Below are positions 29,809-59,961 of a stretch of DNA of 64,000 bases, piece after piece. A model generated the notes under the pieces. The model was not told where the DNA came from. It worked only from the letters and a program-made list of their open reading frames with translations, and did not search any database. Position numbers and translations under genes: made by a program. Position 1 is the stretch's first letter. Every line of letters begins with the position of its first letter. Source of the DNA: Candidatus Omnitrophota bacterium (GTDB lineage: Bacteria; Omnitrophota; Gorgyraeia; B26-G9; JBDRCZ01); contig JBDRCZ010000017.1 in NCBI GenBank assembly GCA_043821285.1, positions 15,947-79,946 on the forward strand. Reading direction: 5' to 3'.

Positions 29809-29834
29809 AATTTTTTGTCATAAGACAAAAAATT
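29809..29834 (-). terminator. Terminator of giant gene A
   Basis: TTTTTTGTC-ATAA-GACAAAAAA hairpin immediately after the stop (minus sense ...GCAATATAA TTTTTTGTCTTATGACAAAAAAT). Confidence 0.55.
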
Positions 29835-32820
29835 ATATTGCTTGCTCTATAAATGTCAGGTTTTGGAATTGCGGTTTTGGAATTGCTGTTGTACTAGGGG
29901 GAAAATTAGGAAGTGGTGGATATCCAAAAAATTCTCTGGCAGTTGGATTTTGAATAGATTCAAAAGTAATCATACTTGGTGTCCCTCTATAAGTAGCTAT
30001 TTCTCCATTTAATTTTATTGTATTTTCATTATAATCATATGTAACAATTACCTGCAGTCTCTTACCTCTCTCTCCGCTTCTTGTGAGAACTAAGACGACA
30101 TTTAGTTCTGTAATTCTGCTTTGCATGGTATAAACTTGTATGCTTCCAATACTTTCAGGTATTTTAAGCTCTTTACTCCCAATTTTTTTACTCTCACTTA
30201 TAACTTCTTCTTCAATAATCTCTAAGCCTTCTGGCGCGTGAATTTCTCGTATCGCTTTCATCACTTCTTGCTTTAAATCTGGTGACAAATTTTGTACTAC
30301 TTCACTATTTTCTATAAATCTTATTTCCCTTGGATCAGTCCTCCGGCGTTCTTTGCCTTTTTTATCATCAAGTTCAAGAAATAGATATCCCCCGGTCGCG
30401 GAATTCCACGAAATCCTTGTTTGACCTTTATCATTGGCAGAAAAATTAATAGTAACATAGTTATTCGGACTGATTGTTAATATTGTTCCTTCACCAAATG
30501 ACGCGTGTTTCACCGTATCCCCTGCCCGCAATAGTGTTCCGTCAGGCAAAATAAGAGTAGGTCGAGCTAAGTTATTAATTACACTTCGTAACGCTATTTG
30601 TAGGTTTCCCTGGGAATTATTTTCAATATCAGGATAATTTTCAAAAAAGTCGTTTTGTGCCTTTTGTATTGCATTATAATGGCCTAATACTGAACAAATA
30701 GCTCCGTGATAGATGTATTCCTGGCGAATTAATGGATTATCCTGTTCACAAATTTGCCTTGATAACACTAAAGCCGGTTCAGGAAATAATTCGTTAAATT
30801 TCGCCTCACCTAAAATATTAATAATCTCTTGTTTTGTTTCTTCTGCATGTGAATAGAATTCAAGCACATAATCATCTTCTTGATTAAACACAACAGCATC
30901 AGTTACAATAATGCGTAATGGTATCTCACTTCCTGCAGTAGTATGCAAATACTTCCTTATTCTTTGTTCTATTTGTTCTATATCTTGCTTAAGATCATCA
31001 GTTTCATCGCGATACTGCCTATGGGAAAGATTATAGAGCATTTGTTTAAACGCACGGTCACCTTTGCGGATAAAGCCGCCTTCATTGTCTGTCGGATTAT
31101 TTTCTTTTGATCCTTCTCCTAATTCAGGAAGAAGGTGATATTGTTCAATTATTGCGGCTATTTCTTCAGGGTCATTTAGATTTCTGTTCCTAATTTTTTC
31201 ATAAACATCCGAATGCCAATTATCAATAGCATCACCTATAGCCTCATTTGACAACTCGCTACCTTGCGTTCGGGTAACTAAAAACATATACGATAATAAT
31301 GATAGTTTCATAGAATTTGGCAGAGTAGGTTCTTTGAGCATTTCTAATGGGGGTAACATACGGTTTTCTAAAACAGTTTTTACTTGTTCTGGAAAATCCT
31401 TCATAATAATAGGCCACAGCTTTAAAAAATTAACCAATGCTTCTTGATTTATTCTTTCAGGTGGAAACGCCTGGGAGTTTTTTTCAACTATTCTTTCTAT
31501 AAAATACAAAACTGCTCTGAGAGAGAAAATTTCTATGTTTGCATTTTGCGGAATTTCAACAGAAGAATTAACCCGTTCTCCATTAACAAGAATTATTGAT
31601 TTTTCAAAAGATAAGTCGTTTGCCTGGTATGTGGCTGAAATATAAGTAAGTAGTTCTGCTACAGTACTGCCTTTAGCAGGAATTCTAATTAATTCGTCAT
31701 TCCTACTGCCAATAAGTGAAGCAGAGATTCCTATTGTGTAAGGTAAAAGACAAACACTTATCCTTTCTTGATAAATTTGGCGTGTCTGTTTAGTTATAAT
31801 TATAGGTTTGCCAGCATTATCCCTTACTTCTACCCTACCCTCGTGTACGGCATGAAGAAGATTAAGAAAATCATCTGTGCTTTTAATTAAATTTTTATCT
31901 TTAGAAGCTAAATCATTCATAAGGCTAAGGGCATTAAGAAGATTTGCCCTATCATAAAGAGGAATCAAGCCTTCATTAATGCAGCGCTCGAGGTCTTCTG
32001 GTGTTTGAATAAATCTTGTATTAACATGAATCTCAAGTATCTTTTTAAGCGGGGCCCCGAGCGGTTCGTATTTACCAAAGATAAAGTTAAGCCCGCTTAT
32101 ATTATACATAGGAATATTCTTTGATATTCTAACTAAAGCATTACCGTATCCAATAAGACAGATTTTGGTCTCTTCAAAATCTTCTCTAGCGATTAAATCC
32201 TGAACCTGTATTAACCCCCTAAGCACCGCCTCTCTCCGAATATCTTGAATGTGTACTATTTCCTCGCGGATTTGCCGCATCGATCCTATCTTGCGCAAAA
32301 TTTGAGTTAATATTTTGGTATAAATTATAAAATGTAATAATTGGTCATCAGCTTCAACAATACCTTGTTTTTCCATTAAATACTGGATTAAAAATGCCCC
32401 ATGTTCAAACACATACTTGTCTTCATCAGAAACGCTATAAAATCTAACCAACCATTTATTAAGCGAACGCTTAAAAGACGATAAGGTATCAAAGCGTTGT
32501 ATAACATTTTTTGTTGCTAACAGGGCACTAAAGATAAGATTATGGATAATGTGACTAATGCCAGTTCTCTTGTTTTCTTGTAAAAGTTTATCAGCATCGA
32601 CTATTATTTTAGCTTCAGCAGATTCTTTTGCTAAAGTATCCGTTGCTTCGCCAGGATCACTAATATCTTTTGCAAAAATATCGCTATTTATGCTTAAGGG
32701 AGGGGCAAGATGGGTGTGTAGGCCTTTTAAATTGTTGCCGGCGGCCCAGGAGAGGTCGAGGCAGAAAAAAGCGTTAATTAGCATAATAACTGTTAGTTTA
32801 AACCAAATACTGCGTTTCAT
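29833..32820 (-). CDS. Giant-family protein A (995 aa): shared signal peptide, ThiS/MoaD-like beta-grasp segment, small UvrD-C-like beta motif, C-terminal FIEQAI
   Basis: N-terminus MKRSIWFKLTVIMLINAFFCLDLSWAAGNNLKGLHTHLAPPL (family motif). VAELLTYI...SIILVNGERVNSSVEIPQNANIEIF resembles ThiS/MoaD. GDTVKHASFGEGTILTISPNNYVTINF resembles the GxxVxHxxFGxG tail of UvrD-like helicases. Confidence 0.7.
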   Translation of the reverse strand: MKRSIWFKLTVIMLINAFFCLDLSWAAGNNLKGLHTHLAPPLSINSDIFAKDISDPGEATDTLAKESAEAKIIVDADKLLQENKRTGISHIIHNLIFSALLATKNVIQRFDTLSSFKRSLNKWLVRFYSVSDEDKYVFEHGAFLIQYLMEKQGIVEADDQLLHFIIYTKILTQILRKIGSMRQIREEIVHIQDIRREAVLRGLIQVQDLIAREDFEETKICLIGYGNALVRISKNIPMYNISGLNFIFGKYEPLGAPLKKILEIHVNTRFIQTPEDLERCINEGLIPLYDRANLLNALSLMNDLASKDKNLIKSTDDFLNLLHAVHEGRVEVRDNAGKPIIITKQTRQIYQERISVCLLPYTIGISASLIGSRNDELIRIPAKGSTVAELLTYISATYQANDLSFEKSIILVNGERVNSSVEIPQNANIEIFSLRAVLYFIERIVEKNSQAFPPERINQEALVNFLKLWPIIMKDFPEQVKTVLENRMLPPLEMLKEPTLPNSMKLSLLSYMFLVTRTQGSELSNEAIGDAIDNWHSDVYEKIRNRNLNDPEEIAAIIEQYHLLPELGEGSKENNPTDNEGGFIRKGDRAFKQMLYNLSHRQYRDETDDLKQDIEQIEQRIRKYLHTTAGSEIPLRIIVTDAVVFNQEDDYVLEFYSHAEETKQEIINILGEAKFNELFPEPALVLSRQICEQDNPLIRQEYIYHGAICSVLGHYNAIQKAQNDFFENYPDIENNSQGNLQIALRSVINNLARPTLILPDGTLLRAGDTVKHASFGEGTILTISPNNYVTINFSANDKGQTRISWNSATGGYLFLELDDKKGKERRRTDPREIRFIENSEVVQNLSPDLKQEVMKAIREIHAPEGLEIIEEEVISESKKIGSKELKIPESIGSIQVYTMQSRITELNVVLVLTRSGERGKRLQVIVTYDYNENTIKLNGEIATYRGTPSMITFESIQNPTAREFFGYPPLPNFPPSTTAIPKPQFQNLTFIEQAI

Positions 32821-33140: not shown

Positions 33141-36100
33141 TTAGATTGCTTGCTCTGCTATAAATATATTAGGTACTGTTATTTCTCCGGCACTTGGTAT
33201 ATCTTCAAGTAATGTGTCCGGTGCAAATACATTTTCATTAGCAGGATTGGCTCTTGTGGCTATATCTTTAGCGTTTATAACACGTTGTGAGCGTCTGTCC
33301 TTATGAGCACTAGTGTCATTCGTTTCCTTTTGTAATTTTGCAAGAAGAACCGGATTATCTTTTATTTCACGGTGATTTTTGACGTTGGGAAAAAAACCTG
33401 TTGTCAGTTTTCTTGCGGCGGTTAAATCATCAACAGTTTGAATAATCATTCCTAATTCACCATTTAAATCTTCGCTATGAACAACACCAGCTTCTAATCT
33501 TACCTGCATGCCTAATTCTGAAATCACTTCATTAACTTTGATTTCGATCGCTTTCAAAGTAGCGGCAATTTTTTCCGAAGTAATTATCCCATCATCTTCT
33601 CTATAAGCTCCTGCAAATTGATTATAAACATTGTTATTAATTGATAGAATTACATCATTTCCAACATTGTGGCCAAATACATCATTAATAACCTTAAATC
33701 CAAAATGCAATTGTGCAAATTGTGCATCTCCATTTAAGTCTGTTTCTCTGTAAAACTCTCTGTTGCCGCTTGCTCTTATGAAATCATTTATATTTATGGA
33801 TGTAGAACTAACTATATAATGTGCTGATAGTTTTATCAGTTGTACACGGTTATTTTCTCTTTTTATAACGAGGTAGAACTTATCAGGCCGTTCATGTACA
33901 ATACTGATTGAAACAGCAGATTTGCCGTCTAAAATGTTTTGAATGGTTTTGCCCAACTTATCTCTTTCTATTACCGGGTAAAACTTGTCTAAATCTTCTT
34001 TCGAAATACCCGCATCTATCATTTCCTGACGTATTCTTTCTCCTTCAACTCCTAATTGAAATTTTTTATCGTCAGCTATTTTAATCGGTGATTTTCTCTC
34101 TTCGCGCTCAGGATCTGGGCGTTCGGATAATCCTATTCCTACTAACTTGTTGGCATATTTAGTCCTGCGCTGGGTGTATTCCGCCTCATCTCTAGCAATT
34201 CTTAGTTGTTCCAATAGACTCATTTGGGAAATATTAGGTATATCACTTATTTTTACTGCTCCTACCGGGGCAAAGGGAACATAAACAGGAAAATAAATCT
34301 TACCATTAATATCAATGTCAAGACATTTAAGATTAGCGAGTATCTCGGATAGAACAGTGTTTTCATCCTCTTCTACATCTTTAGTGAACAGTATAAATGT
34401 TTCCTTAGAAGCCTTTTCTTCTTCTGGCGTTAAAAATACTGATTTTGTGACCGTAGTAATGTTTCTTTTTTTATTTTCTCTTAATTTTTCTATCAACGCA
34501 TCTCTGTTACTATCATTTATATTTTTTAGGATTGCAAAAACGTATTTTCCTTCAATCCGTTCTATGACCTTGCGTTGAATTTGTACGAGAAAGTGCTCAA
34601 TAACTTCTTTTGGCAACATAGGTGGTAACAAACCAACAACCTCATCACCACTAACATGATAAACTGTTCTACCTCTTTCTTCAATTTCTTTACGAGCTGC
34701 CTCAATTAATGTGTTAATTGCAAGTATATTCACATTTTCCCAGCCATATACATCATTTCTACCCCTTAGTTCGCTGATGTCAAAGAATATCACCCAAGCA
34801 TTGTCGTCGTGTCTACCTAAAAATACCACTGCTTCTTTTTCCCATTTTTGTGCATTTTCTGGATAGGCTTCATTAAGAAAGTTTCTTACGCGTGTTGTAT
34901 TATCAAATAAAGTGGTTAAATACATTATAAACTCTTGCAGTTCGTTATAGGGTTCGTCAGTATCTTTTCTACTTAAAAGAACATCTATCACCTTAGTAGC
35001 CGCGTCCCTAAATTGCTGATCATTAATATTTTGGTTAATAATTTTTCTCCACTTCTCACCTAAACGCTTTATTTCAGCCTTCAGAAACATTTCTATTGCT
35101 TCCTCATCTTCGCCTTGTTCTTTACACCTATCTACTTCTAATATTACTTTTTCTACATCTGCGCCCAACTCAAAAGCAAAAAATTCCCCATCTCGTTCCT
35201 GACTGGAATTTTCTCTTGGCAAAATGCTTGCCATACCTAAGCTAAATGCTGCGATTAAACCTGCGGTTCCTCCTCCCATCCCTGATTGAAGCATTGATGC
35301 TGCGGAAAATTCTGGTTGAGATGGGAAATAACCAAGTGCTCGCATTAATGTTCCAATAGATGCTGCTAAAAGCACGATGGATATTTTAGGTTTATTTCCA
35401 AACCATGCAACTAACCTCCTAATTAGCGTACCTAACCTGTTCTCATGGGAAGGACTTTTGTTTAATGCCCTCCAACCAGTTGGATGCATAAATGCTACAT
35501 TAGTTGCTTTGCGTCTACGATGAAGAAGTCCGCTTATATTTGCAGGAAATATTATTTTTCTGCTTATCCACTTTTTTACCTCATAAGCAATATATATTAA
35601 TGTTAAAATTATGCCCAAACCAGGTATTACCATACAATCGCTAATAAAATTATTCCACTGTTTAACACGAGCATAACCTTCTCTTACAGTAAAACTATCA
35701 ATAAAAAACTCTTCTCCCATCGGTGGCATGATACCAAACTTAGCAATAAAATCTGCCTGGTTTTTAAATGCTTCTGTTGTTTCTGGATTGATATCAAAAA
35801 AAGGAATAACTAATCGAGCAATGTTAAAAATCAACGTTACTGGGTTATGTTTTATAAGAAATTCCATTGGGTTTTTAGGCAAATTATCGACATGATGACT
35901 TAAACGCACTAATGTAACAGCGTATTCAAAAATTCCTCGCTTAGTAAAGAAATTTAATCCAATATTAGGATTACCCCATGTTCCATTCCATCTTGAACCA
36001 TAGACAATATCAAAATTGCTTTCACGGATAGGTGGATTATTTGTCATAAGAATTTGGTAAGTTTCGGGAGAAACTAATTTTATCAAAAATAGCGCTGGTC

Positions 36101-39100: not shown

Positions 39101-39581
39101 TCAGTTTAGGGTTTATGCATTGCCAAAATAAATAAACTACCCCTGTTATCATTAACAATACATAAGGATTATTAAAATAACCATGAGGTATATTAGAAGA
39201 TAAGGAAATAATTATTTGCTTAAGTGGGTATAAGATTGTGCTTAGCGGTATTATATTGCTTATTACCAACACAGAAAATATTGCTAAAGCAGTTATACCG
39301 GCAATATAAGCTAATGTTCTGAATCTGTTTAAAAAGATTGGTGATTCTGTTGTAGGTTGTTTTGTTGTGATGGTAGCTGGGGCATGAGGTGTCATTTTTT
39401 CTCCTGAAATTATGAAAGCATGTTCCGTTACGGAATTAGCTATTTGCAATTCAGGGGCAAGGTGGGTGTGTAGACCTTTTAGATTGCCGCCGGCGGCCCA
39501 GGAAATGTCCAGGCATAAAAAGGCATTGATTAATATTATGGAAATTAGTCTAAAATAAATTTTACGTGTTAAATTATTCAT
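33141..39581 (-). CDS. Giant-family protein B (2146 aa): signal peptide, several TM clusters, HEAT/ARM-like repeats, two degenerate GGDEF-like nucleotide-cyclase palm domains, C-terminal IAEQAI
   Basis: N-terminus MNNLTRKIYFRLISIILINAFLCLDISWAAGGNLKGLHTHLAPEL. GGDEF-like 1: FFDISELRGRNDVYGWENVNILA...YHVSGDEVVGLLP. GGDEF-like 2: HFGFKVINDVFGHNVGNDVIL...AYREDDGIIT. TM clusters at about aa 85-165, 960-1010, 1290-1420. No terminator between B and A. Confidence 0.7.
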   Translation of the reverse strand: MNNLTRKIYFRLISIILINAFLCLDISWAAGGNLKGLHTHLAPELQIANSVTEHAFIISGEKMTPHAPATITTKQPTTESPIFLNRFRTLAYIAGITALAIFSVLVISNIIPLSTILYPLKQIIISLSSNIPHGYFNNPYVLLMITGVVYLFWQCINPKLTFAGIGGLKLPFSSLQDWGNPGEDTTKHFSNRNSYNSTTRAYIQDVINKLATYRDRASRTDNMAELGEFANRDEDTIATAMDLLTDALSAHSEDREITSDIKDILVKGFGVKAIRHLLDHGEKKQDVIIDILTEIAKKSEDNLQSAVTELSEQGLIYRGTRVTIASSVLGNIVERAFPHIREYVLQSSDLRIRRLLINILKERNEIRVVILIKEIFEQMTQEKFEKKEVFNETELDFLRTVIEVLNYFIRYLFVLYNRIQQDELSDRDRQFITEIANALKINPRAENQNNIIKQMVDKITDSLIILFFHSAYELANIRKELLKDYLVEIGRKEILGAHVIESCIKRMRTLIQQPNRYIINMNLTNLLLLGEEIIRGIGEPAEKLVTNALNDKTNPLYLRLRAVKNLLGDIGTEYAVQILGNILLEDDPIGSEYKSDCVTAIEAIYCKLKKEENATERLRKISLVILVGFIYHSNEFLKLFVRMVNDGLLTEEIYELALIAYTREIGLTTWQVVTDNLGQTRMGIATDRENIFYAFTSFEILASEPERVIPAPGNKSLHQRIESGLNKEWKNLPEHYKNGFIGHGTTLTYRKEEEADAQGFINATLRYYTHSQQIMLHKERYEGWLNNKNSLMIGKSTHGYLNIVYYIMPNGLIICAEGEFDPEKDILEQHRAGLALLEDEITQQTQKLQEEEQKALIQLTITKEASNSQQDGIRELISAEQIPATNIYDLLAYLFIKTITSQISYYNDRNRKAILTTQKMLQSGELVLKVNGLPRSVEDLEQTFNHGDNVEITAPDNNSSRRLPNGTTALSIDGLIMAIGFAGLFFGLPGAVIAAIGLIGLAIFGWGFKHSVNFSFARKVVLPLLTILAIGSQTILAPIGIAAPLNIVSLEPVGKSGLVQPTPADSLKLNELPQPVSLQENNGELQIALNEFHNLIETFQNSPLASKIDENTGSFIESTARKRAQEIDTAVIKLYNEYKAAGMLDDFIERRDGTEGAEHIGPALFLIKLVSPETYQILMTNNPPIRESNFDIVYGSRWNGTWGNPNIGLNFFTKRGIFEYAVTLVRLSHHVDNLPKNPMEFLIKHNPVTLIFNIARLVIPFFDINPETTEAFKNQADFIAKFGIMPPMGEEFFIDSFTVREGYARVKQWNNFISDCMVIPGLGIILTLIYIAYEVKKWISRKIIFPANISGLLHRRRKATNVAFMHPTGWRALNKSPSHENRLGTLIRRLVAWFGNKPKISIVLLAASIGTLMRALGYFPSQPEFSAASMLQSGMGGGTAGLIAAFSLGMASILPRENSSQERDGEFFAFELGADVEKVILEVDRCKEQGEDEEAIEMFLKAEIKRLGEKWRKIINQNINDQQFRDAATKVIDVLLSRKDTDEPYNELQEFIMYLTTLFDNTTRVRNFLNEAYPENAQKWEKEAVVFLGRHDDNAWVIFFDISELRGRNDVYGWENVNILAINTLIEAARKEIEERGRTVYHVSGDEVVGLLPPMLPKEVIEHFLVQIQRKVIERIEGKYVFAILKNINDSNRDALIEKLRENKKRNITTVTKSVFLTPEEEKASKETFILFTKDVEEDENTVLSEILANLKCLDIDINGKIYFPVYVPFAPVGAVKISDIPNISQMSLLEQLRIARDEAEYTQRRTKYANKLVGIGLSERPDPEREERKSPIKIADDKKFQLGVEGERIRQEMIDAGISKEDLDKFYPVIERDKLGKTIQNILDGKSAVSISIVHERPDKFYLVIKRENNRVQLIKLSAHYIVSSTSININDFIRASGNREFYRETDLNGDAQFAQLHFGFKVINDVFGHNVGNDVILSINNNVYNQFAGAYREDDGIITSEKIAATLKAIEIKVNEVISELGMQVRLEAGVVHSEDLNGELGMIIQTVDDLTAARKLTTGFFPNVKNHREIKDNPVLLAKLQKETNDTSAHKDRRSQRVINAKDIATRANPANENVFAPDTLLEDIPSAGEITVPNIFIAEQAI

Positions 39582-40047
39582 AAGTTAATAGCCTATCAGT
39601 TAATTCCAAATGTTCCGCCTATCAAACCGGCGGACAGGCAAATAATAAAATCCAAATGACAAATGAATCATTTAATATCTCAATCTAAAAATCAAAATGA
39701 TATATTAAAATTCAAATATTTTTCTCTTTGACAGGATTTACAGGATTAACATGATTTTTTATCCAGTTAATCCTGTCTATTTTCTTATTTTCTCTGTGAA
39801 CTTTGTGTTCTCTGTGGTTATAAATTTTTTTATTTTTTTTAATCGTAATACTCAATACATGCTACTCAATACGCATTACTTTTTATAGTGTGCTCTCTGT
39901 GGTTAAAATATTTTTTGTTTTTTTATCTACATAATCATCCGTATTCTACGCTCTCTTTTATATGCACTATTTTCATTACAATCATACATATTGTAACCGC
40001 TAATAATTACAATCTGTTAAATATATTTATAACAATTTTAATATATA
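39582..40047 (-). promoter_or_regulatory. Long conserved 5' leader of giant gene B (about 465 nt)
   Basis: Shares several blocks with the 59037-59553 leader of gene E: conserved stem-loop TCCGCC-GGTTTGATA-GGCGGA near the start codon, CTCTGTG(A/G)TGATAAATTTTT boxes (CACAGAG in RNA sense), ACTCAATAC heptamers, AATCCTGTCTAT box. Confidence 0.5.
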
Positions 40048-40082: not shown

Positions 40083-40419
40083 GGATTTTGCTAAAAAAAT
40101 ATAGAAAATAACAGATTAAAAGATTCAGGTGATCACGGTTTTAAAACAGTATCAAGGCATTATTTATAACTTATTTATTTATAATATATTATAAAATAAT
40201 TATCGAATATGCCTACATGTTAATTATTCGTGAAATTCGTGTAATTTGTTGTTTAAAAATAAGCAGTTAAAGTTTTTCTTTGTGTGATAAATTTTATTTT
40301 TTACCGCAGAGAAAATCTAAAAGAAATCTCGTTCACAGATGTATGTAAGTTACATCCACTTTCTATTCTTAGTGCGTTACGTAAACGGTAAACTGCCTGC
40401 CTCCCGTTAGGGAGGTAAA

Positions 40420-40447
40420 CTAAAAAATTGCCATAGGCAATTTTTTA
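40420..40447 (-). terminator. Terminator of giant gene C overlapping its stop codon
   Basis: Minus sense GCAATTTAA-AAAATTGCC-TAT-GGCAATTTTTT: 10-bp A/T-flanked stem. The stop-codon region GGCAATTT can alternatively pair with AAATTGCC. Confidence 0.6.
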
Positions 40448-43400
40448 AATTGCCCGTTCAATTTCAAACAAATCTGCTATCTCTCTCTTCTCCAGTTTTG
40501 TATCTGATCCATTTATGCCTACCCTATAGCCAGTGTGTCTTTCTTGGGGAGCAACTATTAGAGAATAAAGAGCGTGTAGTAACAGCATATCAGAATCAGA
40601 AATATGAGGGTCTATATTTTTTGCTTCTAATATTGATTCATCATCGCTTATTATTTCTTGTATAATTGTTTTTACTATATCTCTATCTTCAGCTCTGCAT
40701 TTTTCATGAATTGCATTCAGACATTGTTCAAAAAATGGTCTGAGCATCATAAGCTGAACATTATCTTCTTGTGTATATGCATTGGCAACTGCTTTTGTAA
40801 CTGTTTCTAAAACAGTTTGCCGGTAATCTGGTCTTACCGTATAGATATTATCAAAAAAGATAAAAGTCCCGGCTGCGGCTTGTGGCATTATTGTCTTGTT
40901 TAGTATCTCATTAATAACATTTCGAGGAAAATATACTAAAATACTTAATAATTTATCTATTGTAGTATTACTTGGGGTTAAACCTTGCTGCTGGATCAAC
41001 TCTTGATATTTTCTTCCTATGATTCTATGCATAGATTCAAGACTTCTTCTATTTGCATTTATCATTAAATTATTTCCTTTAACTGCTGTAACTAAGTCCG
41101 TTAATTCGCTTCGTATCATTTCTCGTTCTTTCTCAAATACATCCGTATCTTCGTTCCTCTGAGATATAAATAACCCTAAAAATTCAAGTTCTAATGCTTT
41201 TTTAAAGGCATCTTCCGAAGTAAATGCGTTTAATCTAACAGTAATATTTTCTAACAACATTAGCTCAAAGCTGGTACCTTGACGAAAAATATGTTTTAGA
41301 AATTTTTCTGCATTAGTAAATTCGGGTGAAAAGATGATTTCTCCACTGACACCATCTACTGTTTTCTCCATCACTTCATTTATCAAATTACCTACTGAAT
41401 CTAAGTTGTGAAACTCGTTTAATCTATTTTCATCTTGTATAACAGCTCTTAAATAAACCTCCATTCTTAAAAGGTAATCAGCCAAAAAAACACCATCAAT
41501 TGCAAAACGTATATTTTCATTCGTATCTTGAGTTCTTGCAGTCAAGGCTTGATAAAGAAAATCATCTATATCGGTCAACATTCTATAAAAGATTTCCATT
41601 GCTGTTTCCTTATCCTGTTTTAGAGCAAGTTCGAGGACATTATTAACATTTGAAAAATCTCGTGAAATATACTCCTTAATTACATCACATAACGCATTGA
41701 ACAGTGGTTTTTTATCACGACGGTAAATAGCAAAACTTAGCCTAATAAATGCTGCTAATATCTCATGGGAATTAAATCCTGAATTTATTAAATAACTTTG
41801 CTCCTTTTCTATATAGATTGGTATAATTTTAGAAACGTCATATCCCGCAATAACTGTGTAAGCAACTGCAGCAAAAATAAGATTATGTGTTTCTGCATCA
41901 TGTTTAGGAATGTTTATTCGTTGTAAGATTTCTCCTAATACTTCTCCTGCCTCAGTAGTTCTCTCCTCTTTTCCTTCAATCTGCGCTTTTATTTTATTAG
42001 TAAAAAATTCAAAAACAAAATCAGGTTCTGCCTTAAGATACGCTTCTATTGTTTCCCAATCTGCTGCTAATAAATTACGCAGTTTTTGGATTTTATCTTG
42101 AACCACGATTAAGTTATTTCGTAGATTGCTTATTTTTTTCTGATTTTTTCTCGTTTGTTTTTGCTCTTTGTTTATGGTTTGCTGAATAGTTCTTTCATTG
42201 CTTTGGCGACGATTAAGTGCCTGCGTCCTTGTAATAACTCCTTCTAAGAGGATTGTTACTTCAGAGAGTTTTTCTCTACGCGCTTTTACTGCCGGGGGCA
42301 TATCTAAAAGTAGAGGTTCCCTTGTTGTCACTGGAGCCTGCCATGCTGGAAGTTCTTCAGATGCTACTTGCATAGCAGCAGCGCCTTGAAGGACCTGAGG
42401 ATATAATGAATGTTTTTGCATTGGGTCTTCAACTAACATAAGCTCACAACTTTGAGGCGGTTTGAGAGCATTAATTCTATTTTGGATAACTACTCCCAAT
42501 CCCCAAGCCCATTCTGCTTGACTTTTATATAAATCAACTAAGGCTTCAATATCCTCACTTTCGTTTATAATTGCGGTTATTCTCTCTACCAGAGGAGCCC
42601 GGCTGTTTCTGTTAGGATAGGTATTAAGCATTTGATATAATTCAGGTATATTACTTAAATCATTATAACCGAGTAATCTTTTTCTCAGTACCTCTGCTAT
42701 TACCCCCCTTATTTGCTTACATCCGTAGGTATATTTATTTATAGAATTATCTGTAAGTAAACGAAGCAGGTTTTCGATATCTAAGGAAAACACTTGCCTG
42801 ATAATACCGAAAATAATATATATTTCTACTTCAGAGTGAATTTTTTTACTAAGTAAATTAGCTAATGCAGCAAGTGCCTCGCCCCCCCATTTACTAACCA
42901 TCTCCTGAGCAATAGCTTGAGCTTGTGTTTTGTCATTATTTTCTGCTTGCTGACGTTTAAATCTATCGGAAATTGCGGTTAATCGTTCAATGCCATCTTC
43001 AATCGAAGAAACAGTTAGGTGTATTTCTGATATTTTTCCTTGAGAAGCAATACTATTACTTAATTGTGCGGCTGCTGCTTGCTTTGTTTTCTGGGGTAAC
43101 CTTGGATTTCGTGACCACTCTGAAAGCAAGCGATCATTTACTTCTGCTAATCTTTTTGCAGTGCTTAACGCCTTAATTCTATACCAAAGATAATTATTCC
43201 AGTATTCATCGTCCCATTCTTGGCTTAGATACACATCAACTAAGGCAACAATATCTTGATTATTTTTTATTATATGTTTCATCCTTCTTCTTGCCAGATC
43301 TTTAATGTCTTCGTTCGGACATAATGTTTCATTATTAATAACATAATATAATGCAGAAATACTTGTTACGTTTCGAGGAATGCTAACAGTTTTTATGATA

Positions 43401-46400: not shown

Positions 46401-47536
46401 CAATACTGTACTGGTTTGCGATACACTGCTTTTGCTGCTACTAATATATTTTTTTCTTTCTCTGTAAGTGCGGTGTCATCATTTGTCCATATCCTAATCA
46501 TTCCGTGTCTTGGTGCTGTTATATAAAATGAAATTTTTGACGCAAGAAACTCTTCCCATTCTTCTGGAGAAGGCACAGTTGATAAATCAGCACGTAAACG
46601 TATAAAACGGTTATAGTTTTTATTTTCGTTATTAATTATGTCTGCCGGAAGCAGCCGCCGGCCAACATGAATTTCTATATTAGAGTTTTCTGGTATTGGT
46701 TGGGTATAACGGCTTCGATCAGGGGTTGAAACATTCCAGTAGTTTTGTGTTGATATACCAAATCTCAAAGATTCGTTATCTATTTTTATGCTCTCGGGAG
46801 CAAAAAACATCATCATAATTGCATGCGCAGGTAAACGTATTGCATCAATCCAGTAGTGAATTCCTTTACGATAACTATACTCAAGGATAATTTTAATACC
46901 ACGTTCAAACAGAACTTTTAATCCGGGTAAAAAGGCAATATTATTAAATACGCTGTTGGTATTTAATCTAAAGACTTCCATATCCCTGGGGACAGTAAGC
47001 ACTATTCGCGGAGACGCACCTTTAATATCTATTTTTCCATAAGTAGTAATTTCACTTTGCAAATCACGCGCCAACCCAAGCAAACTTAGAAAGTCAATTT
47101 CTTTTAGAACCGGGGGTATTCTTTCAACCGTCTCATCATCTGGACAAGGTATTTCTGGAATTTCCCTAATATTTAATTGATTGTTTTTTTTAGAAATTAC
47201 ATAAGAACGTTGTTTACCAGCTGCGCCTGTTGTTACAAACAATACTATCGAACCATCATTCGCAAATCTTTTCTCGCATGCATCAAACTCAAACTTATCT
47301 TTAATATAACTTACGCCAACATGTCCTTCTGCCCAAGTATATGCATCACTTATTTTTTTGTAAAGCATAATATTTTCTGCAAATAGAGGGTCATTTACTT
47401 CCAAAGGCGGGGCAAGATGGGTATGTAGACCTTTTAGATTGCCGCCGGCGGCCCATGAGATGTCTAAGCATAGAAAGGCATTGATTAATATTATGGAAAT
47501 TAGTCTAAAACAAATTGTACGTGTTAAATTATTCAT
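40445..47536 (-). CDS. Giant-family protein C (2363 aa): signal peptide, TM cluster, poly-acidic/poly-basic linker, helical-repeat C-terminal module paralogous to F, C-terminal FEIERAI
   Basis: N-terminus MNNLTRTICFRLISIILINAFLCLDISWAAGGNLKGLHTHLAPPL. DDSDQYDDDEEEDK ... RKKRKREREKE. C-terminal 700 aa align clearly with gene F, e.g. LIFAAVAYTVIAGYDVSKIIPIYIEKEQSYLIN versus LFAVIVYTFIAGGDVSKIILIYIEKEISYLIN. Confidence 0.7.
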   Translation of the reverse strand: MNNLTRTICFRLISIILINAFLCLDISWAAGGNLKGLHTHLAPPLEVNDPLFAENIMLYKKISDAYTWAEGHVGVSYIKDKFEFDACEKRFANDGSIVLFVTTGAAGKQRSYVISKKNNQLNIREIPEIPCPDDETVERIPPVLKEIDFLSLLGLARDLQSEITTYGKIDIKGASPRIVLTVPRDMEVFRLNTNSVFNNIAFLPGLKVLFERGIKIILEYSYRKGIHYWIDAIRLPAHAIMMMFFAPESIKIDNESLRFGISTQNYWNVSTPDRSRYTQPIPENSNIEIHVGRRLLPADIINNENKNYNRFIRLRADLSTVPSPEEWEEFLASKISFYITAPRHGMIRIWTNDDTALTEKEKNILVAAKAVYRKPVQYWDTNKSTQDWDSAENYIKMMKEKEANLNNFDETQRLAIIKALAEQFGVYSVSAVLQIIENLLNEHQNITPQSLGQLVEVIKWWGGEFVLILANYLTTLFNKNKHTEIERIVLRVDSLGLAFYGALLASIKDNELLAVIQNIHNKRILDIRQYNTKIQRLRERLEFFPTDGLKKIKTEGKGDGYKLRIAWWHQDRMIDNTKYAIAGNTILLRNEANSKELIIDILRKEVTFRENDIIWIGNVEYKIVKEDDKIFLSDKENKHDLRKDRNGNIIIDLRALIKTNRAVREFYQESNAGKSVTLNSHPLINGLFLLLIAPFILEVISNITGIPVSVNLGHLPIHAILGLSLIMTFPLYIQPQIQFIPNVWELVKKAVTGAKSAMLIIIDYIEFTIINSLARHEGLLYPVVHFVAARPDALAFFIWKGLAWGFSLLCLLGSTGVRSTRNSALEIDLSFLVKTYLLLDEDTYHEALKDAIDNIIESAHENGQIIEQLIGVINDLTLSEEEIEQLMQEGSGELSEENIRIALMLIIEELINAIDDSDQYDDDEEEDKVVLMKRKARKQYRADSPPIARKKRKREREKENNPQAYTVPLQSGDLRQPEKEGTDTAEVALPKDTVPPSGNNNPLTLNSLEKLAAAFDLSLSPPDRFVRTTAPSNAAQVVHFPEPPSQSDTRALRAAWRNANQRADTNRDAPPTREVAAPSDNQVTFAELLADFDPIKTLTLEELLRRLNHGDNSSQLIEAIKQRLAEYQGIASIEPLQDLLNDREYHEGTRALLRMRIRELVNECDNLKTAVELYLERSWGSSIRNILSEKILRLTGIQKHIAGTIYLFFSNAANTELNDILSQYMCLENEVVHVLGLLIGIQDRTVRKRIIEWLRINKPELDTTIASQIEKLEKELADYYQTPEEIQAFIASAPQEVKNIITEMYNTKDKDEFLEIIKQFAEQIDTNLLNEEAIEITMSALGNCLNSMSVTEIFYLYTAMNQQETKGAEVTRGMIKSIIIIKTVSIPRNVTSISALYYVINNETLCPNEDIKDLARRRMKHIIKNNQDIVALVDVYLSQEWDDEYWNNYLWYRIKALSTAKRLAEVNDRLLSEWSRNPRLPQKTKQAAAAQLSNSIASQGKISEIHLTVSSIEDGIERLTAISDRFKRQQAENNDKTQAQAIAQEMVSKWGGEALAALANLLSKKIHSEVEIYIIFGIIRQVFSLDIENLLRLLTDNSINKYTYGCKQIRGVIAEVLRKRLLGYNDLSNIPELYQMLNTYPNRNSRAPLVERITAIINESEDIEALVDLYKSQAEWAWGLGVVIQNRINALKPPQSCELMLVEDPMQKHSLYPQVLQGAAAMQVASEELPAWQAPVTTREPLLLDMPPAVKARREKLSEVTILLEGVITRTQALNRRQSNERTIQQTINKEQKQTRKNQKKISNLRNNLIVVQDKIQKLRNLLAADWETIEAYLKAEPDFVFEFFTNKIKAQIEGKEERTTEAGEVLGEILQRINIPKHDAETHNLIFAAVAYTVIAGYDVSKIIPIYIEKEQSYLINSGFNSHEILAAFIRLSFAIYRRDKKPLFNALCDVIKEYISRDFSNVNNVLELALKQDKETAMEIFYRMLTDIDDFLYQALTARTQDTNENIRFAIDGVFLADYLLRMEVYLRAVIQDENRLNEFHNLDSVGNLINEVMEKTVDGVSGEIIFSPEFTNAEKFLKHIFRQGTSFELMLLENITVRLNAFTSEDAFKKALELEFLGLFISQRNEDTDVFEKEREMIRSELTDLVTAVKGNNLMINANRRSLESMHRIIGRKYQELIQQQGLTPSNTTIDKLLSILVYFPRNVINEILNKTIMPQAAAGTFIFFDNIYTVRPDYRQTVLETVTKAVANAYTQEDNVQLMMLRPFFEQCLNAIHEKCRAEDRDIVKTIIQEIISDDESILEAKNIDPHISDSDMLLLHALYSLIVAPQERHTGYRVGINGSDTKLEKREIADLFEIERAI

Positions 47537-47853: not shown

Positions 47854-47881
47854 CTAAAAAATTGCCGCAGCAATTTTTTAG
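47854..47881 (-). terminator. Terminator of giant gene D overlapping its stop codon
   Basis: AAAAAATTGC-CGCA-GCAATTTTTT hairpin; minus sense ...GCAATCTAA AAAATTGCTGCGGCAATTTTTTAG. Confidence 0.6.
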
Positions 47882-50800
47882 ATTGCTTGTTCTACTGCCA
47901 ACATTTCATTCCACTCTAACTCTGTAAGTGCAGGGGGTTGTTTAGGCATTGTTGTCAATTGTCCTGGGTTATTATCATGAGGATCCAGTCTTTGCTGCTC
48001 TACAATCTTTATTGCTGCTTCAATAATCGCTGCAGTGTCCATCTTATGTGCACGGTATAATATCTCGTGACTTCTTGCGGATTGTCCCCAACCTTGGATT
48101 CCTAACGAAGTTACAGTTGAACCAGTTGTAAGCAGAGATGAAGTTACTACCTTACTTACTGCTCCGCTTAATATTTTTGGAGAAGCGTCTTGAACAGTAA
48201 TTATTGGCACTCCCCGTTCAAGAAGAGGTGGTAAAGCTTCATCGATTAAATCCAATCTGGTCAAATTTATTACTTTTGCGGTAATATCTTGACTTTCCAA
48301 TTGTTCGCTCGCGGCAATTGCAAATTCCACCATTGCTCCGGCAGCAATAATAATAATATCGCTATTTTGTCCGTTTTCTCTTGGATCTTTAATTACATAA
48401 GCACCTTGTTCTGGACTGGGATTTTCTCCTCTATTTAAAACTGGAACATTTTGACGGGTAAGCTGAAGATAAGAAGGTCCTTTACCATCTAATGCCCTGT
48501 GCATAGCAAAATCTACTGCTTCTTCAGCCTCACGGGCATCTGCAGGTATAAAACCAGTCATTTTTTGCAAAAAAGAAATATAGCGAATAACGCCAGCAAC
48601 GATTACTGACTGATGAGTAGAACCGTCTGGCCCAACGCCTAAGCCGGCATGACTTAACGCAACAATTACCGGTAGTTTTGCCCGGGCAATCACAATTATT
48701 TGACTAATCATTCGGTTAGCAAAACAATCAAAGGTTGCGATAACTGGTATCTTACCATATAATGCTAATCCAGCAGCAATTCCTGCCATTGCTTGTTCTC
48801 TTACTCCGGATGGAACGTATCTTCCATTGGTGTTATGACGAGAAAAAATGCCAAAGTCCCTAGCAAACCAATTCAGTCTTGTAGAACTGGCAATGTCCGC
48901 GCAGAAAGCAATAATCTTTTCGACGCGTTTTCCCCAGTCAAGCATCCTGTTACCAAAACCATCACGTGTAGCAAAATTCCTATTTGCTTGGTATCTAATT
49001 TCTGCCGGTGTTTGTAGCATTGTCATTTGAACCGGCTCTGGCTCTTGTGTTTGTTTAATGTTGCTATAAATAAGCAGATTGAATTCCCCAATCTTATAAG
49101 GAACCATTCCATTCAATGCTTCCATAATTGTTGTGGCCATGATGTGTTCATCAAAACCCCGGGTAATAATTAAAACAGGTTTTCCTGTATTATCCTTGTT
49201 TAGCTGTTCAAAGGTTTGACCTAAGATTTCAGCCTGTTCTTGATTATTATTAGCATTGAGCTCAATCACTCTCCAACCATAAGCTTGCCAAATATTAACT
49301 AATTCCGTGTTTGTCTCTGAAGCTTGAAGGACTAAGCAGAGATTATCTATGCCATTGTGTGCGGCGAATCTAGCTGTTTCTGCAAACTGACCTTCTCTTT
49401 CTTCTTTTTCCGTGGCTAAAGCAATAACTCTGCCAGATGCTGTATCCATTTTAGCTCCAAAAGCTATACCTGCGGCCAGAGAAAGACGCATACCCGCAGG
49501 GAATATTTCTTGAGGACTAAAATCTATTTTCATAAGCCCGTCCGTGGGTTTTTCTTTTCCATCAACTAATTCTTTTGCTACTTCTATTATATTTTCAATA
49601 TCCTTGTCACTCATGGACCAAACAACGGAACCTGCGGTTTTAGAAGATGAAGTTACAGTCCTGCTTACCGCATCACCTAAACATACTGGCAATCCATCAT
49701 AAATTGTAAGAATACGGCTTCCTGGCTCAATATACTCTAAGAGCTCACTTCCTGCACCTAATGAGTCTAATTGCGTAACATTTATGATCTTAGTCATCGT
49801 ACCTTGTGATTCTAACTCATTACTGACTTTTATGGTTTGATGAAGACTTTTACCTGAAGAAATAAGAATAACCCTCTTTTTTGCCGTGTCCCACCCTTCA
49901 GATTGACTTATAACATAGGCACCTTGCTCTGGCTGGGGATTTTCTCCTCTATCTATAACCGGAAGATCTGCAGAACTTAAACGAATATAAGAAGCAGTGT
50001 ACTCATCTGGGATATTAAGTGATGTAGGGGCTTTATTTGTTATTTTAGCCAATAATAATGCATTTTTTATTGCCATATCAGTCAACTCATTAGTTTCATT
50101 AGGATCCCCTGGTTCTAACGCAATTACATTATGCATCAGGTCCATAACTCCTGGGGTAAAACTTAACTCTTCAGATTCAGCCGCTAAAATAAACGGTACC
50201 CTTGCCTGAGCATTTATCCTTAATTGGTCTAACATTTTCATCGCATCATTTTCCGGCAGAAAGACAATCGGCAGCATACCCGAATAACCAAACCCAGCAG
50301 CAAAACTGGCTAAGTGCTGTTCTCTATCCTCAACTAAGAAACATCGCTCGATGAGTTTATTTCTTATATCTTCATCAGTAATCTGTGCAATAAATTCATC
50401 AATAAATCTTTGTTTAGAATCGGAATTATTAAAAATAAATACTATCCGTTCATCTTTTTCTGCCCACTGGAGTAGTCTATTTTTAAATGCAACAGATGGA
50501 GAGACTTCCTCATCCTGTGCATAGTTGGTTCTATCTGGTATTGTTGTCGTGTCTGTTTTTTGTAGAGTACTCTCTTTTGATAAATTGTTTTCTTCTTGTT
50601 CTGTCATTTGGTTATCTGAAATAAATCTATCTACATCTGTTGAAAATCCATAAAAATTCATTTGTTGACTAATATTTTCAATTGTGTTTTCTATTTGGGG
50701 GATAGCTTCAGATAGTTCTTTATCATTTAATGCTCTACCGTGAAACGCGGTTGGATCATCTTCCATAAAATCTACGCCTTTACCTTTTTTTGTCTTGGCA

Positions 50801-55285: not shown

Positions 55286-55313
55286 CTAAAAATTGCCGAT
55301 GGCAATTTTTTTA
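55286..55313 (-). terminator. Terminator of giant gene E overlapping its stop codon
   Basis: AAAAATTGCC-GAT-GGCAATTTTTTT; minus sense ...GCAATCTAA AAAAATTGCCATCGGCAATTTTTAG. Confidence 0.6.
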
Positions 55314-59933: not shown

Positions 59934-59961
59934 ACAAAAAGTTGCCATAGGCAACTTTTTA
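59934..59961 (-). terminator. Terminator of giant gene F overlapping its stop codon (covarying stem)
   Basis: AAAAAGTTGCC-ATAG-GCAACTTTTT. Relative to the C, D and E terminators, the A:T pair is replaced by G:C on both arms, a compensatory change. Confidence 0.6.

What the first reader, a model, noticed from the sequence alone, without database searches (positions are those of the whole stretch)
39455..39581. 5' coding ends of B and C are near-identical at the nucleotide level, with the pattern repeated for A, D and E
By eye roughly nine in ten positions are identical over about 135 nt between 39455-39590 (B) and 47400-47535 (C), including perfect 30-nt and 32-nt runs (TAGACCTTTTAGATTGCCGCCGGCGGCCCA and CATTGATTAATATTATGGAAATTAGTCTAAAA on the + strand). 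Identity stops abruptly after codon about 45. D and E form a second subtype (58905-59036 versus 53420-53553). Such sharply bounded DNA identity within otherwise unrelated genes implies ongoing gene conversion or recombination at the 5' ends, or a functional RNA element inside the coding start. Either would allow cassette swapping between giant genes.
Basis: seen in the sequence. Interest (0 to 1): 0.75.

Follow-up and report, generated by a model that had tools for sequence, protein, structure and literature searches.

The report
Shared leader peptide on Omnitrophota proteins
The near-identical 5' gene ends encode a roughly 45-residue signal-peptide-like leader which, with a fixed C-terminal tail (...V-E-Q-A-I), tags at least 29 otherwise unrelated large enzyme-rich proteins in this Omnitrophota genome; this looks like an undescribed protein-sorting signature, and DNA-level copying explains only the closest pair.

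Summary
B and C share 122/135 nt (90%) over codons 1-45, D and E 78%, and A 67-74% with the others. Identity falls to 31-40% immediately afterwards.

The cause is mainly protein-level. dN/dS is 0.07-0.25, and synonymous sites are strongly diverged or saturated in 9 of 10 pairs. Only B-C keeps synonymous and 5'-UTR identity (dS 0.33; block 39455-39616).

The segment encodes a leader: a basic n-region, a 15-residue hydrophobic helix (F-K-x-I-[SA]-x-x-L-I-[NQ]-A-F-L-x-L-D-I-[AS]-W-A), small residues ([AG]-G-G), then L-[AS]-P-x-Φ-x-I.

All six giant genes also end in Φ-[VI]-E-[QR]-A-I-stop. A profile search finds 78 proteins, 77 with the leader at or near the N-terminus, and 48 of those 77 end in [AS]-I. 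At least 29 come from this same MAG. The rest trace to Omnitrophota or are unlabelled.

The bodies are unrelated and carry cytoplasm-type enzyme domains. No Pfam, NCBIfam or Rfam model matches, and the papers I checked do not describe it.

Junction blocks (tail, intergenic region, leader) have been copied between neighbouring genes here and in another genome. Recombination therefore shaped the arrays but is not the main cause of conservation.

The likely function, inferred only, is a dedicated export or sorting signal.

The parts
39447..39581 (-). Leader-coding segment of gene B (codons 1-45): MNNLTRKIYFRLISIILINAFLCLDISWAAGGNLKGLHTHLAPEL
47402..47536 (-). Leader-coding segment of gene C (codons 1-45), 90% nt identity to B
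32695..32820 (-). Leader-coding segment of gene A (42 codons; three residues shorter at the N-terminus)
58902..59036 (-). Leader-coding segment of gene D (subtype AANGNLKNLSTHLAPPL)
53419..53553 (-). Leader-coding segment of gene E (subtype shared with D, 78% nt identity)
39582..39616 (-). 5' UTR part of the B-C shared block; counterpart upstream of C is 47537-47571
   Evidence: sliding identity; 162 nt at 92%
29833..29859 (-). C-terminal tail of A plus stop: LTFIEQAI*
33141..33167 (-). C-terminal tail of B plus stop: IFIAEQAI*
40445..40471 (-). C-terminal tail of C plus stop: LFEIERAI*
47878..47904 (-). C-terminal tail of E plus stop: MLAVEQAI*
55311..55337 (-). C-terminal tail of D plus stop: VLAVEQAI*
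59959..59985 (-). C-terminal tail of F plus stop: VYAIEQAI* (F's N-terminus lies beyond the window end)
40381..40444 (-). Shared 3' flank after C's stop: terminator-like hairpin AAAATTGCCnnnGGCAATTTT plus GTTTACC...CAGGCAGTTTACCGTTTAC. It is 89-92% identical to 47815-47877 after E's stop. Similar hairpins lie at 55288-55310 and 59936-59958.
   Evidence: (families D3, D9)
39608..39642 (-). GC-rich hairpin TTTGCCTGTC..GATAGGCGG in B's upstream leader. Counterparts: D 59064-59097, C 47640-47682, E 53587-53619.

Best explanation
Shown. The shared 135 nt encode a conserved N-terminal leader peptide.
- It has a basic n-region with net charge +2 to +4.
- It has a 15-residue hydrophobic helix with near-invariant F, K/R, I, L-I, [NQ], A, F, L, L and D.
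- It has an [AS]-W-A site followed by [AG]-G-G, which fits the signal-peptidase-I -3/-1 rule.
- An L-[AS]-P-x-Φ-x-I motif follows 10-20 residues later.

The leader is one half of a two-ended signature. The other half is a C-terminal tail, Φ-x-[LF]-[VI]-E-[QR]-[AS]-I-COOH, preceded by a non-conserved stretch that is often rich in Pro, Ser and Thr.

The signature marks at least 29 otherwise unrelated proteins in this Candidatus Omnitrophota MAG. It marks similar sets, often in same-strand tandem arrays, in other Omnitrophota.

Most of the nucleotide identity is a by-product of purifying selection on the peptide. B-C are closer because a junction module was copied more recently between neighbouring genes. 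That module runs from the last codons of the upstream gene through the terminator, promoter and 5' UTR into the leader.

Inferred. The leader takes these proteins into the Sec pathway with an N-in, C-out orientation. Its unusually invariant helix face is read by a lineage-specific partner. The tail is a second recognition element for sorting, docking or release. Together they would define a dedicated export or surface/host-delivery route for enzyme-rich modular proteins.
For: Protein-level conservation:
- dN/dS is 0.07-0.25 and dS is 0.86 to saturated in 9 of 10 pairs.
- Codon identity is near the codon-usage expectation except for B-C.

Leader anatomy, from 75 sequences:
- F 64/75, K/R 70/75, L 70, I 66, F 73, D 71, W 67, A 70.
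- Position -3 is A or S in 62/75 and position -1 is A in 70/75.
- The n-region carries +2 to +4 in 70/75, and the 25 residues after the site average -0.6.
- Conservation has alpha-helical periodicity, peaking at 90-100 degrees.

Family:
- A profile search of 1.84 billion representatives gives 78 hits.
- 77 have the leader at or near the N-terminus (start at residue 1-14 in 76, at residue 26 in P0055). The remaining hit, P0056, matches internally and was set aside.
- Lengths run from 65 to 6278 aa.
- 29 are from the window's own MAG, including E, which is placed there by being on the same window contig as A-D (locus tags ABH952_).

DNA-pattern scans:
- All 15 genome hits lie at ORF N-termini; 13 are labelled Omnitrophota.
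- 9 of 12 metagenome stretches are true members.

Tail:
- 6/6 giant genes in the window carry it, against 0/24 other window ORFs.
- 48/77 family members end in [AS]-I, and most of the others are short fragments.
- Genes lying upstream of leader genes in other loci also end in the tail, which indicates tandem arrays.

Bodies:
- There is no similarity between A-E beyond about residue 55.
- A and C have no detectable homologues elsewhere.
- Domains found are transketolase, SAM methyltransferases, PGK, NDK, guanylate kinase, PGI, PPDK, NUDIX, HD, HEAT and Fic.

Not generic:
- Ordinary signal peptides in the same window lack the motif.
- No Pfam or NCBIfam model matches the leader, even at E<=10.

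Junction copying.
Against: - Cleavage, export and any partner protein are untested. No signal-peptide predictor was available.
- Many body domains need ATP or other cytoplasmic cofactors. That fits poorly with a periplasmic or extracellular location unless the proteins act inside another cell or are threaded back by later transmembrane segments.
- A test of K/R bias around the second hydrophobic segment was inconclusive.
- No dedicated transporter or protease gene recurs next to family genes in the 8-15 kb loci examined.
- Lineage-specific leader features are shared by all 29 paralogues of this MAG. They could reflect concerted evolution rather than selection alone.
Confidence: 0.62

Rival explanations
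1. Ongoing gene conversion or concerted evolution at the DNA level is the main reason the 5' ends are alike. The peptide is conserved only because the DNA is continually homogenised, which lets gene bodies be swapped as cassettes.
For: - B-C: dS 0.33, 33/40 identical codons against 16 expected, and identity continues 35 nt into the UTR.
- The C->B and E->C junctions share both ends at 92%.
- L008 and L011 in another genome share 232 nt at 97.8% across tail codons, intergenic region and leader.
- All 29 leaders from this MAG share lineage-specific residues (FLCLD, NLKxLxTHLAP) that are absent from other genomes.
Against: - dS is strongly diverged or saturated in 9 of 10 pairs in the window, although the peptide is 55-76% identical.
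- The four tandem members in L018 show only motif-level similarity.
- The same leader architecture persists across distant genomes whose DNA is diverged.
- Even B-C differ at 13 of 135 positions, so any conversion there is not recent or continuous.
Confidence: 0.15
2. The leader is an uncleaved membrane anchor or assembly helix. It tethers multi-enzyme proteins to the cell's own inner membrane, with the catalytic domains working in the cytoplasm. The C-terminal tail would then be a docking peptide or degron rather than a secretion signal.
For: - Body domains are typical cytoplasmic, ATP-dependent enzymes: PGK, NDK, guanylate kinase, PPDK, transketolase, helicase-type AAA and HTH.
- Most members have further hydrophobic segments 60-200 residues after the leader.
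- Conservation lies on one helix face, as expected for helix-helix packing.
- A 2026 preprint reports that 46% of long Omnitrophota proteins are predicted to have transmembrane helices and no signal peptide, with their bulk on the cytoplasmic side.
Against: - The charge distribution (+2 to +4 before the helix, about -0.6 after it) predicts N-in, C-out, which puts the body outside.
- An [AS]-W-A site followed by G-G is kept in both leader subtypes at a fixed register, as expected for a cleavage site.
- Several members (A and D among them) have no second hydrophobic segment within about 1,200 residues of the leader to bring the body back inside.
Confidence: 0.2
3. The conserved 5' segment is a recombination site of a phase- or antigenic-variation system of the Mycoplasma vsa/vsp/vpma type, or it is a structured RNA that regulates translation.
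For: - It is a multigene family with conserved 5' ends and divergent bodies.
- Junctions share hairpins and 7-9 nt tandem repeats.
- Transposase genes are nearby.
Against: - All genes lie on the same strand, and each has its own terminator-like hairpin and upstream motifs.
- No site-specific recombinase is present in the window; there is only an IS DDE transposase and an IS200-like gene.
- There is no lipobox.
- DNA identity is not general.
- There is no conserved RNA fold or covariation in the coding start and no Rfam hit.
- Four-fold degenerate sites vary freely between subtypes (alignment).
Confidence: 0.03

Closest known systems
YSIRK/GXXS signal peptides paired with C-terminal LPXTG sorting signals in Gram-positive surface proteins (e.g. 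PMC5962339, PMC7644249)
   Same: A signal peptide with residue-level conservation is shared by unrelated proteins and co-occurs with a C-terminal sorting motif. The motif directs a sub-route of Sec secretion rather than simply permitting export.
   Different: - There is no sequence similarity and no Pfam or NCBIfam hit.
- The conserved part here is the hydrophobic core and the cleavage region, not the n-region.
- The tail is a bare 6-8 residue C-terminus ending in Ile, without the LPXTG, transmembrane helix and basic tail arrangement.
- The cargo is enzyme-rich and reaches 6278 aa.
- The taxon is Omnitrophota.
Host-targeting leaders: Plasmodium PEXEL and oomycete RxLR (recalled from general knowledge; not tested here)
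   Same: The layout matches: a signal peptide, then a short conserved linear motif 10-30 residues downstream, shared by a large and otherwise unrelated repertoire of proteins in a host-dependent organism.
   Different: - Those are eukaryotic systems with different motifs.
- They have no C-terminal tail.
- Delivery of these Omnitrophota proteins into another cell is pure inference.
Mycoplasma variable surface lipoprotein families (vsp, vpma, vsa; e.g. PMC2268961)
   Same: These are tandem multigene families in which the 5' end, including the signal peptide, is conserved and the rest is divergent.
   Different: - In those families the 5' UTR and signal sequence are conserved at the DNA level, and the genes are switched by site-specific recombinases.
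- Here synonymous sites are saturated for most pairs.
- There is no lipobox, no recombinase and no inverted arrangement.
[quoted passage not shown]
   Same: [quoted passage not shown]
   Different: - In lpl the recombination site is a conserved central region, and the junction unit is the variable part.
- Here the junction (tail, intergenic region, leader) is the conserved or copied part, and the gene bodies are unrelated.
Long and giant Omnitrophota proteins (bioRxiv 10.1101/2023.11.21.568195; bioRxiv 10.64898/2026.06.07.730766)
   Same: - Same phylum.
- Same kind of domain content: HEAT, methyltransferase, PPDK_N, NUDIX, HAD and GGDEF-like.
- Frequent predicted signal peptides and transmembrane helices.
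   Different: - In the passages I searched, those papers report signal peptides only as a topology class. They do not describe a conserved leader sequence or a C-terminal tail.
- Family members here range from 152 to 6278 aa, not 30,000 aa or more.

Membership tests
Sec-type signal peptide cleaved by signal peptidase I | Positively charged n-region | tested here: met
   Net charge is +2 to +4 in 70 of 75 leaders.
Sec-type signal peptide cleaved by signal peptidase I | Hydrophobic h-region of about 7-15 residues near the N-terminus | tested here: met
   A 15-residue hydrophobic core. The Kyte-Doolittle 19-residue window is >=1.6 at residues 1-14 in nearly all members.
Sec-type signal peptide cleaved by signal peptidase I | Small residues at -3 and -1 of the c-region, and no Pro at +1 | tested here: met
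   The site is [AS]-W-A followed by [AG]. Position -3 is A or S in 62/75, -1 is A in 70/75, and +1 is A or G in 66/75. The register is fixed in both subtypes.
Sec-type signal peptide cleaved by signal peptidase I | Actual translocation and cleavage | not testable with these tools
   No predictor or experimental data were available.
Lipoprotein (signal peptidase II) signal | Lipobox L-[AS]-[GA]-C with an invariant Cys at +1 | tested here: not met
   The only frequent Cys lies inside the h-region (26/75) and is replaced by L, M or V in other genomes. There is no Cys after W-A.
Tat signal or type IV prepilin signal | Twin-arginine S-R-R-x-F-L-K motif, or G-F-[TS]-L-x-E with Glu at +5 | tested here: not met
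   Neither motif appears in any of the aligned leaders.
Double-glycine leader (C39 peptidase / PCAT substrates) | A G-G cleavage site with an acidic residue at -8 and hydrophobic residues at -4, -7, -12 and -15 (consensus recalled from general knowledge) | tested here: inconclusive
   G-G is common. The register fits in the window's subtype (D at -8, I at -7, F at -12), but it shifts by one residue in the W-A-G-G-T subtype. The segment is also far more hydrophobic than known GG leaders.
Curated N-terminal signal domains (YSIRK, ESPR, KxYKxGKxW and others) | A match to the Pfam or NCBIfam model | tested here: not met
   No leader match at E<=10 in either library. The only Pfam hit is a spurious Mre11_2nd match at E=0.043. 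There are no N-terminal hits in the whole-protein scans either.
C-terminal sorting signals (LPXTG, PEP-CTERM, GlyGly-CTERM, T9SS CTD, OMP beta-signal) | A motif followed by a transmembrane helix and basic tail; or an 80-100 aa beta-sandwich CTD; or a terminal aromatic residue | tested here: not met
   The proteins end at Ile directly after Φ-[VI]-E-[QR]-[AS], preceded by a non-conserved stretch that is often rich in Pro, Ser and Thr. No transmembrane helix is present there, no model matches, and the terminal residue is Ile in 48 of 49.
Mycoplasma-type phase-variable surface gene family | DNA-level conservation of the 5' UTR and signal sequence in all members, plus a site-specific recombinase or invertible arrangement | tested here: not met
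   dS is strongly diverged or saturated in 9 of 10 pairs. All genes are co-oriented. Only IS transposases are nearby.
Omnitrophota long multi-enzyme membrane or secreted proteins (as catalogued in the 2023 and 2026 preprints) | Omnitrophota origin; long ORFs with HEAT, methyltransferase, PPDK, NUDIX or kinase domains; N-terminal signal peptide or transmembrane helices | tested here: met
   Source names say Candidatus Omnitrophota. Domain content is and is comparable to the lists quoted. The hydrophobic N-terminus is shown.

The most novel reading that the evidence does not exclude
The leader (signal peptide plus the L-[AS]-P-x-Φ-x-I motif) and the ...V-E-Q-A-I-COOH tail together form the address label of a previously unrecognised, Omnitrophota-specific protein export or host-delivery pathway. 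Under this reading, roughly 30 proteins per genome are exported and act on or inside a host or prey cell. They include ATP-using metabolic and nucleotide enzymes, Fic domains, helicases and regulators. The conserved tail-intergenic-leader junctions would act as recombination handles that let new gene bodies be plugged into the arrays. The signature would then give a sequence-based way to list the effector repertoire of these uncultured, host-dependent nanobacteria.
Probability: 0.3. Interest if true: 0.85.

Novelty: new variant of a known kind. Interest (0 to 1): 0.62.

Why it matters
Omnitrophota are uncultured, mostly ultra-small bacteria suspected of host-dependent or predatory lifestyles. 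How their large, enzyme-packed proteins reach their site of action is unknown.

A two-ended sequence signature gives a concrete handle on that question.
- It is far better conserved than the proteins it sits on. Bodies A and C have no detectable homologues, while the leader is found in 78 representative clusters.
- It lets one enumerate a candidate sorted or secreted proteome in any Omnitrophota genome.
- It allows a search for the co-evolving receptor or protease by phylogenetic profiling.
- Targeting can be tested with simple reporter fusions.

It also cautions genome annotators that transketolase, PGK or methyltransferase annotations in these genomes may refer to exported or membrane-tethered fusion proteins.

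On the evolutionary side, the junction-centred copying is a clear example of unrelated gene bodies being framed by a portable tail-intergenic-leader module.

Tried and rejected
- Narrow searches: the search for related loci with the five window leaders found nothing in genome or metagenome collections because its patterns were too specific. A hand-made degenerate DNA pattern then worked.
- The look-up of encoding contigs had no record for P0001 or P0007. The DNA of the MAG's other roughly 24 leader genes could therefore not be compared.
- Body homologue searches for A and C returned only themselves. Whether orthologous bodies elsewhere carry a leader could not be tested.
- RNA element: RNAalifold on the coding start showed no covariation. 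Rfam found only a tRNA elsewhere in the window. The upstream hairpins are not more stable than shuffles, except for E.
- Topology from K/R bias around the second hydrophobic segment was inconclusive.
- Covariation between the post-leader motif and the C-terminal tail, which would suggest the two ends pair, showed no pattern.
- Neighbour genes in related loci gave an MFS transporter, a GH2-like hydrolase, an AbiEii toxin and an ABC permease. No recurrent dedicated protease or transporter appeared.
- Antisense ORFs overlapping the leaders were judged to be by-products of the conserved sense sequence.
- Structure prediction was not run. The bodies lack alignments, and a helix prediction for the leader would add nothing to the hydrophobicity analysis.
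Full report
**1. The observation**

The window is a 36% GC bacterial chromosome segment. Housekeeping genes (ThiC, GuaA, DnaE, HisS, AroB) occupy the first 25 kb. A run of large minus-strand genes follows:
- A: 29833-32820
- B: 33141-39581
- C: 40445-47536
- E: 47878-53553
- D: 55311-59036
- F: 59959 onwards, running off the window

The reported similarity is real.
- Over codons 1-45, B and C share 122/135 nt.
- D and E share 105/135.
- A shares 74% with B and C.
- Other pairs share 65-68%.
- The next 135 nt are 31-40% identical.

The quoted exact runs are present, at 32 and 37 nt. The repeat finder returns the five copies as its largest family. A six-frame motif scan finds exactly five copies, all at gene starts.

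**2. Protein level or DNA level**

BLASTP shows that A-E share only their first 45-56 residues. The one exception is a C/F similarity in their C-terminal parts.

Nei-Gojobori estimates for the 45 codons:
- dN/dS is 0.07-0.25 in every pair where it could be computed.
- dS is 0.33 for B-C, 0.86 and 1.21 for A-B and A-C, 1.65-2.34 for B-D, B-E and D-E, and not computable (saturated) for the other four pairs.

At residues that are identical, codon identity is 33/40 for B-C, against 16 expected from body codon usage (p about 5e-8). It is 21/35 for D-E against 15 expected, and about 14/30 against 12 for most other pairs.

B-C is the exception. Its identity continues 35 nt upstream of the ATG, giving a block at 39455-39616.

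RNAalifold finds no conserved structure in the coding start, with -6.4 kcal/mol and a covariation term of +0.12. Rfam has nothing there.

**3. What the segment encodes**

The consensus is M-x-x-L-T/K-R-x-I-x-F-K/R-L-I/T-[SA]-I-I-L-I-N-A-F-L-C-L-D-I-S-W-A-A-G-G-N-L-K-x-L-x-T-H-L-A-P-P-L-x-I.

Across 75 family members:
- The n-region carries +2 to +4.
- A 15-residue hydrophobic core has near-invariant F, K/R, I, L, I, [NQ], A, F, L, L and D.
- An [AS]-W-A site is followed by [AG]-G-G. It satisfies the -3/-1 rule at a fixed register in both subtypes.
- The following 25 residues are slightly acidic.
- Conservation along the core has alpha-helical periodicity. The helix therefore has a variable stripe and a broad conserved face.
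- An L-[AS]-P-x-Φ-x-I motif follows 10-20 residues later.

Ordinary signal peptides in the same window, on an SH3 protein and a small secreted protein, lack these residues. No Pfam or NCBIfam model matches the leader even at E<=10.

**4. The other end**

All six giant genes end in Φ-[VI]-E-[QR]-A-I-stop:
- A: FIEQAI
- B: IAEQAI
- C: EIERAI
- E and D: AVEQAI
- F: AIEQAI

In C, E, D and F a terminator-like hairpin follows. None of the 24 other window ORFs ends this way.

**5. The family**

A profile of the five leaders was run against 1.84 billion representative proteins.
- It finds 78 proteins of 65-6278 aa.
- 77 have the leader at or near the N-terminus.
- One, P0056, matches internally and was set aside.
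- Of those 77, 48 end in [AS]-I. Most of the rest are short fragments.

The tail consensus is Φ-x-[LF]-[VI]-E-[QR]-[AS]-I. It is preceded by a non-conserved stretch that is often rich in Pro, Ser and Thr.

Source look-ups show that P0001-P0022, P0024-26, P0035, P0040 and P0063 come from one NCBI MAG labelled Candidatus Omnitrophota bacterium, with locus tags ABH952_. They sit on 16 contigs. With E, which lies on the same window contig, that is at least 29 leader-bearing proteins in this one genome. Several are adjacent to one another.

A degenerate DNA pattern for F-[LF]-x-L-D-x-[AS]-W-A-[AG]-G gave the following.
- It hit 15 places in species-representative genomes.
- All 15 are at ORF N-termini.
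- 13 are in Omnitrophota MAGs and 2 are in MAGs labelled Planctomycetia.
- Several genomes have 2-3 hits.
- It also hit 12 metagenome stretches, of which 9 are true members.

L018 carries four consecutive members. In many loci, the gene upstream of a leader gene also ends in the tail.

The bodies are unrelated to one another.
- A and C have no detectable homologues elsewhere.
- Where domains are recognisable they are cytoplasm-type enzymes: transketolase (E), SAM methyltransferase (D), PGK, NDK, guanylate kinase, PGI, PPDK, NUDIX, HD, ACT, helicase-type AAA, HEAT, DUF218, M50 and Fic.

This resembles the domain content reported for long Omnitrophota proteins. In the passages I searched, the two preprints mention signal peptides only as a topology class, not a conserved leader or tail. 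A further literature search found nothing on it.

**6. Recombination**

The junctions between genes are mosaics of shared blocks.
- The C->B and E->C junctions share 73 nt (92%) starting in the last codons and running through the terminator region.
- They also share 162 nt (92%) covering the 5' UTR and the leader.
- Their middles differ in length, 863 against 341 nt.

In another genome (JBDRPX010000027.1), two unrelated genes share 232 nt at 97.8% identity. The block begins at the upstream gene's Q-S-I-stop, covers the whole intergenic region, and ends at A-W-A-G-G.

This shows that the tail-intergenic-leader junction is occasionally copied as a unit between unrelated bodies. [quoted passage not shown] There, however, the conserved and variable parts are the other way round.

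The four tandem genes in L018 share only motifs, so copying is sporadic.

**7. Mechanism**

Shown:
- a conserved, N-terminal, signal-peptide-like leader under purifying selection;
- a co-occurring C-terminal tail;
- restriction to Omnitrophota, as far as the hits are labelled;
- tandem arrays;
- occasional junction copying.

Inferred:
- Sec entry with N-in, C-out orientation and probable cleavage after W-A;
- recognition of the invariant helix face and the LAP motif by a lineage-specific factor;
- the tail acting as a second sorting or docking determinant.

The main rival for function is an uncleaved membrane tether for enzymes that work in the cell's own cytoplasm. The ATP-dependent domains and the later hydrophobic segments favour that reading. 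The charge bias and the conserved cleavage-type site argue against it. My topology test was inconclusive. No dedicated machinery gene was found nearby.

**8. Verdict**

The finding is genuine.

The 5' identity reflects an undescribed two-ended leader/tail signature on a large set of otherwise unrelated Omnitrophota proteins. Recombination at junction modules is a secondary process that has been real at least in the past.

I rate it a new variant of a known kind, namely specialised signal peptides paired with C-terminal sorting motifs. Interest is moderately high because it makes the sorting and possible secretion of these enigmatic proteins directly testable.

Noticed in passing
window 39608-39642, 59064-59097, 47640-47682, 53587-53619 (minus strand): A GC-rich hairpin (TTTGCCTGTC ... 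GATAGGCGG, with sequence-variable stems in C and E) sits 25-100 nt upstream of the ATG of B, D, C and E, but not A. Stability exceeds shuffled controls only for E. It could be a 5'-UTR element or a protein-binding site shared by the array.
   Followed up: partly
window 32949-32957, 39770-39778, 53695-53703, 59290-59298 (minus strand): The motif AGACAGGAT (often TAGACAGGATTAA) recurs 130-260 nt upstream of A, B, E and D. It is a possible shared -35-like or regulator site, which would suggest co-regulation of the array.
   Followed up: no
window intergenic junctions, e.g. 33004-33033, 33097-33130, 39731-39757, 39790-39816, 47576-47606, 55262-55287, 59464-59485: The junctions are packed with short 7-9 nt tandem repeats (ATACACA, TTTCTGA, ACAGGATTT, TTCTCTGTG, CAAGATTC and others) and A/T homopolymer runs. 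Their significance is unknown.
   Followed up: no
window 53922-54986 (+) and 27148-27954 (-): A DDE-family IS transposase lies inside the D->E junction on the opposite strand. An IS200-like Y1 transposase lies just downstream of the array.
   Followed up: partly
window 47878-53553 (gene E); internal nt repeat 48392-48449 / 49910-49967: E consists of the leader, about 630 aa with no recognisable domain, a near-complete transketolase (residues 677-1307, 479 bits against NF004559), a second Pyr/C-terminal module (1527-1850) and the tail. The second module looks like an internal duplication.
   Followed up: partly
window 59959-64000 (gene F) versus 40445-47536 (gene C): About 590 residues near the C-terminal ends of C (residues 1734-2297) and F (324-910) are 36% identical. 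This is the only body-to-body homology in the array. F also has a weak Penicillinase_R (winged-helix) match near its C-terminus.
   Followed up: no
L021 (ORMF010354784.1) 4598-10339 and 168-4592: A metagenome contig carries the leader on a 1913-aa protein after an Arg- and Pro-rich N-terminal extension. This protein and its neighbour end in ...LAAGA and ...LAVGA instead of ...QAI, which may be a lineage-specific variant of the tail.
   Followed up: no
L013 2508-3536 (minus strand) and L008 2939-7825 (minus strand): A 342-aa Fic-domain protein and a 1628-aa protein have degenerate leaders. The LSPxΦxI motif is kept and the hydrophobic core is altered, yet both have perfect tails (FIDQAI, LVGQSI). 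The family is therefore wider than the strict leader pattern detects.
   Followed up: partly
window 11321-12718 (+): A PilZ-domain fused to a T2SS/T4P-type ATPase (T2SSE) lies about 17 kb from the array. The 2023 preprint notes pilZ and type II/IV secretion genes near giant Omnitrophota genes.
   Followed up: no
window 39485-39496 and 47440-47451: The A-A-G-G codons of B and C form a perfect 12-nt GC palindrome (GCCGCCGGCGGC) in an otherwise AT-rich region. D and E encode the equivalent residues with different, non-palindromic codons, so it is probably incidental.
   Followed up: partly
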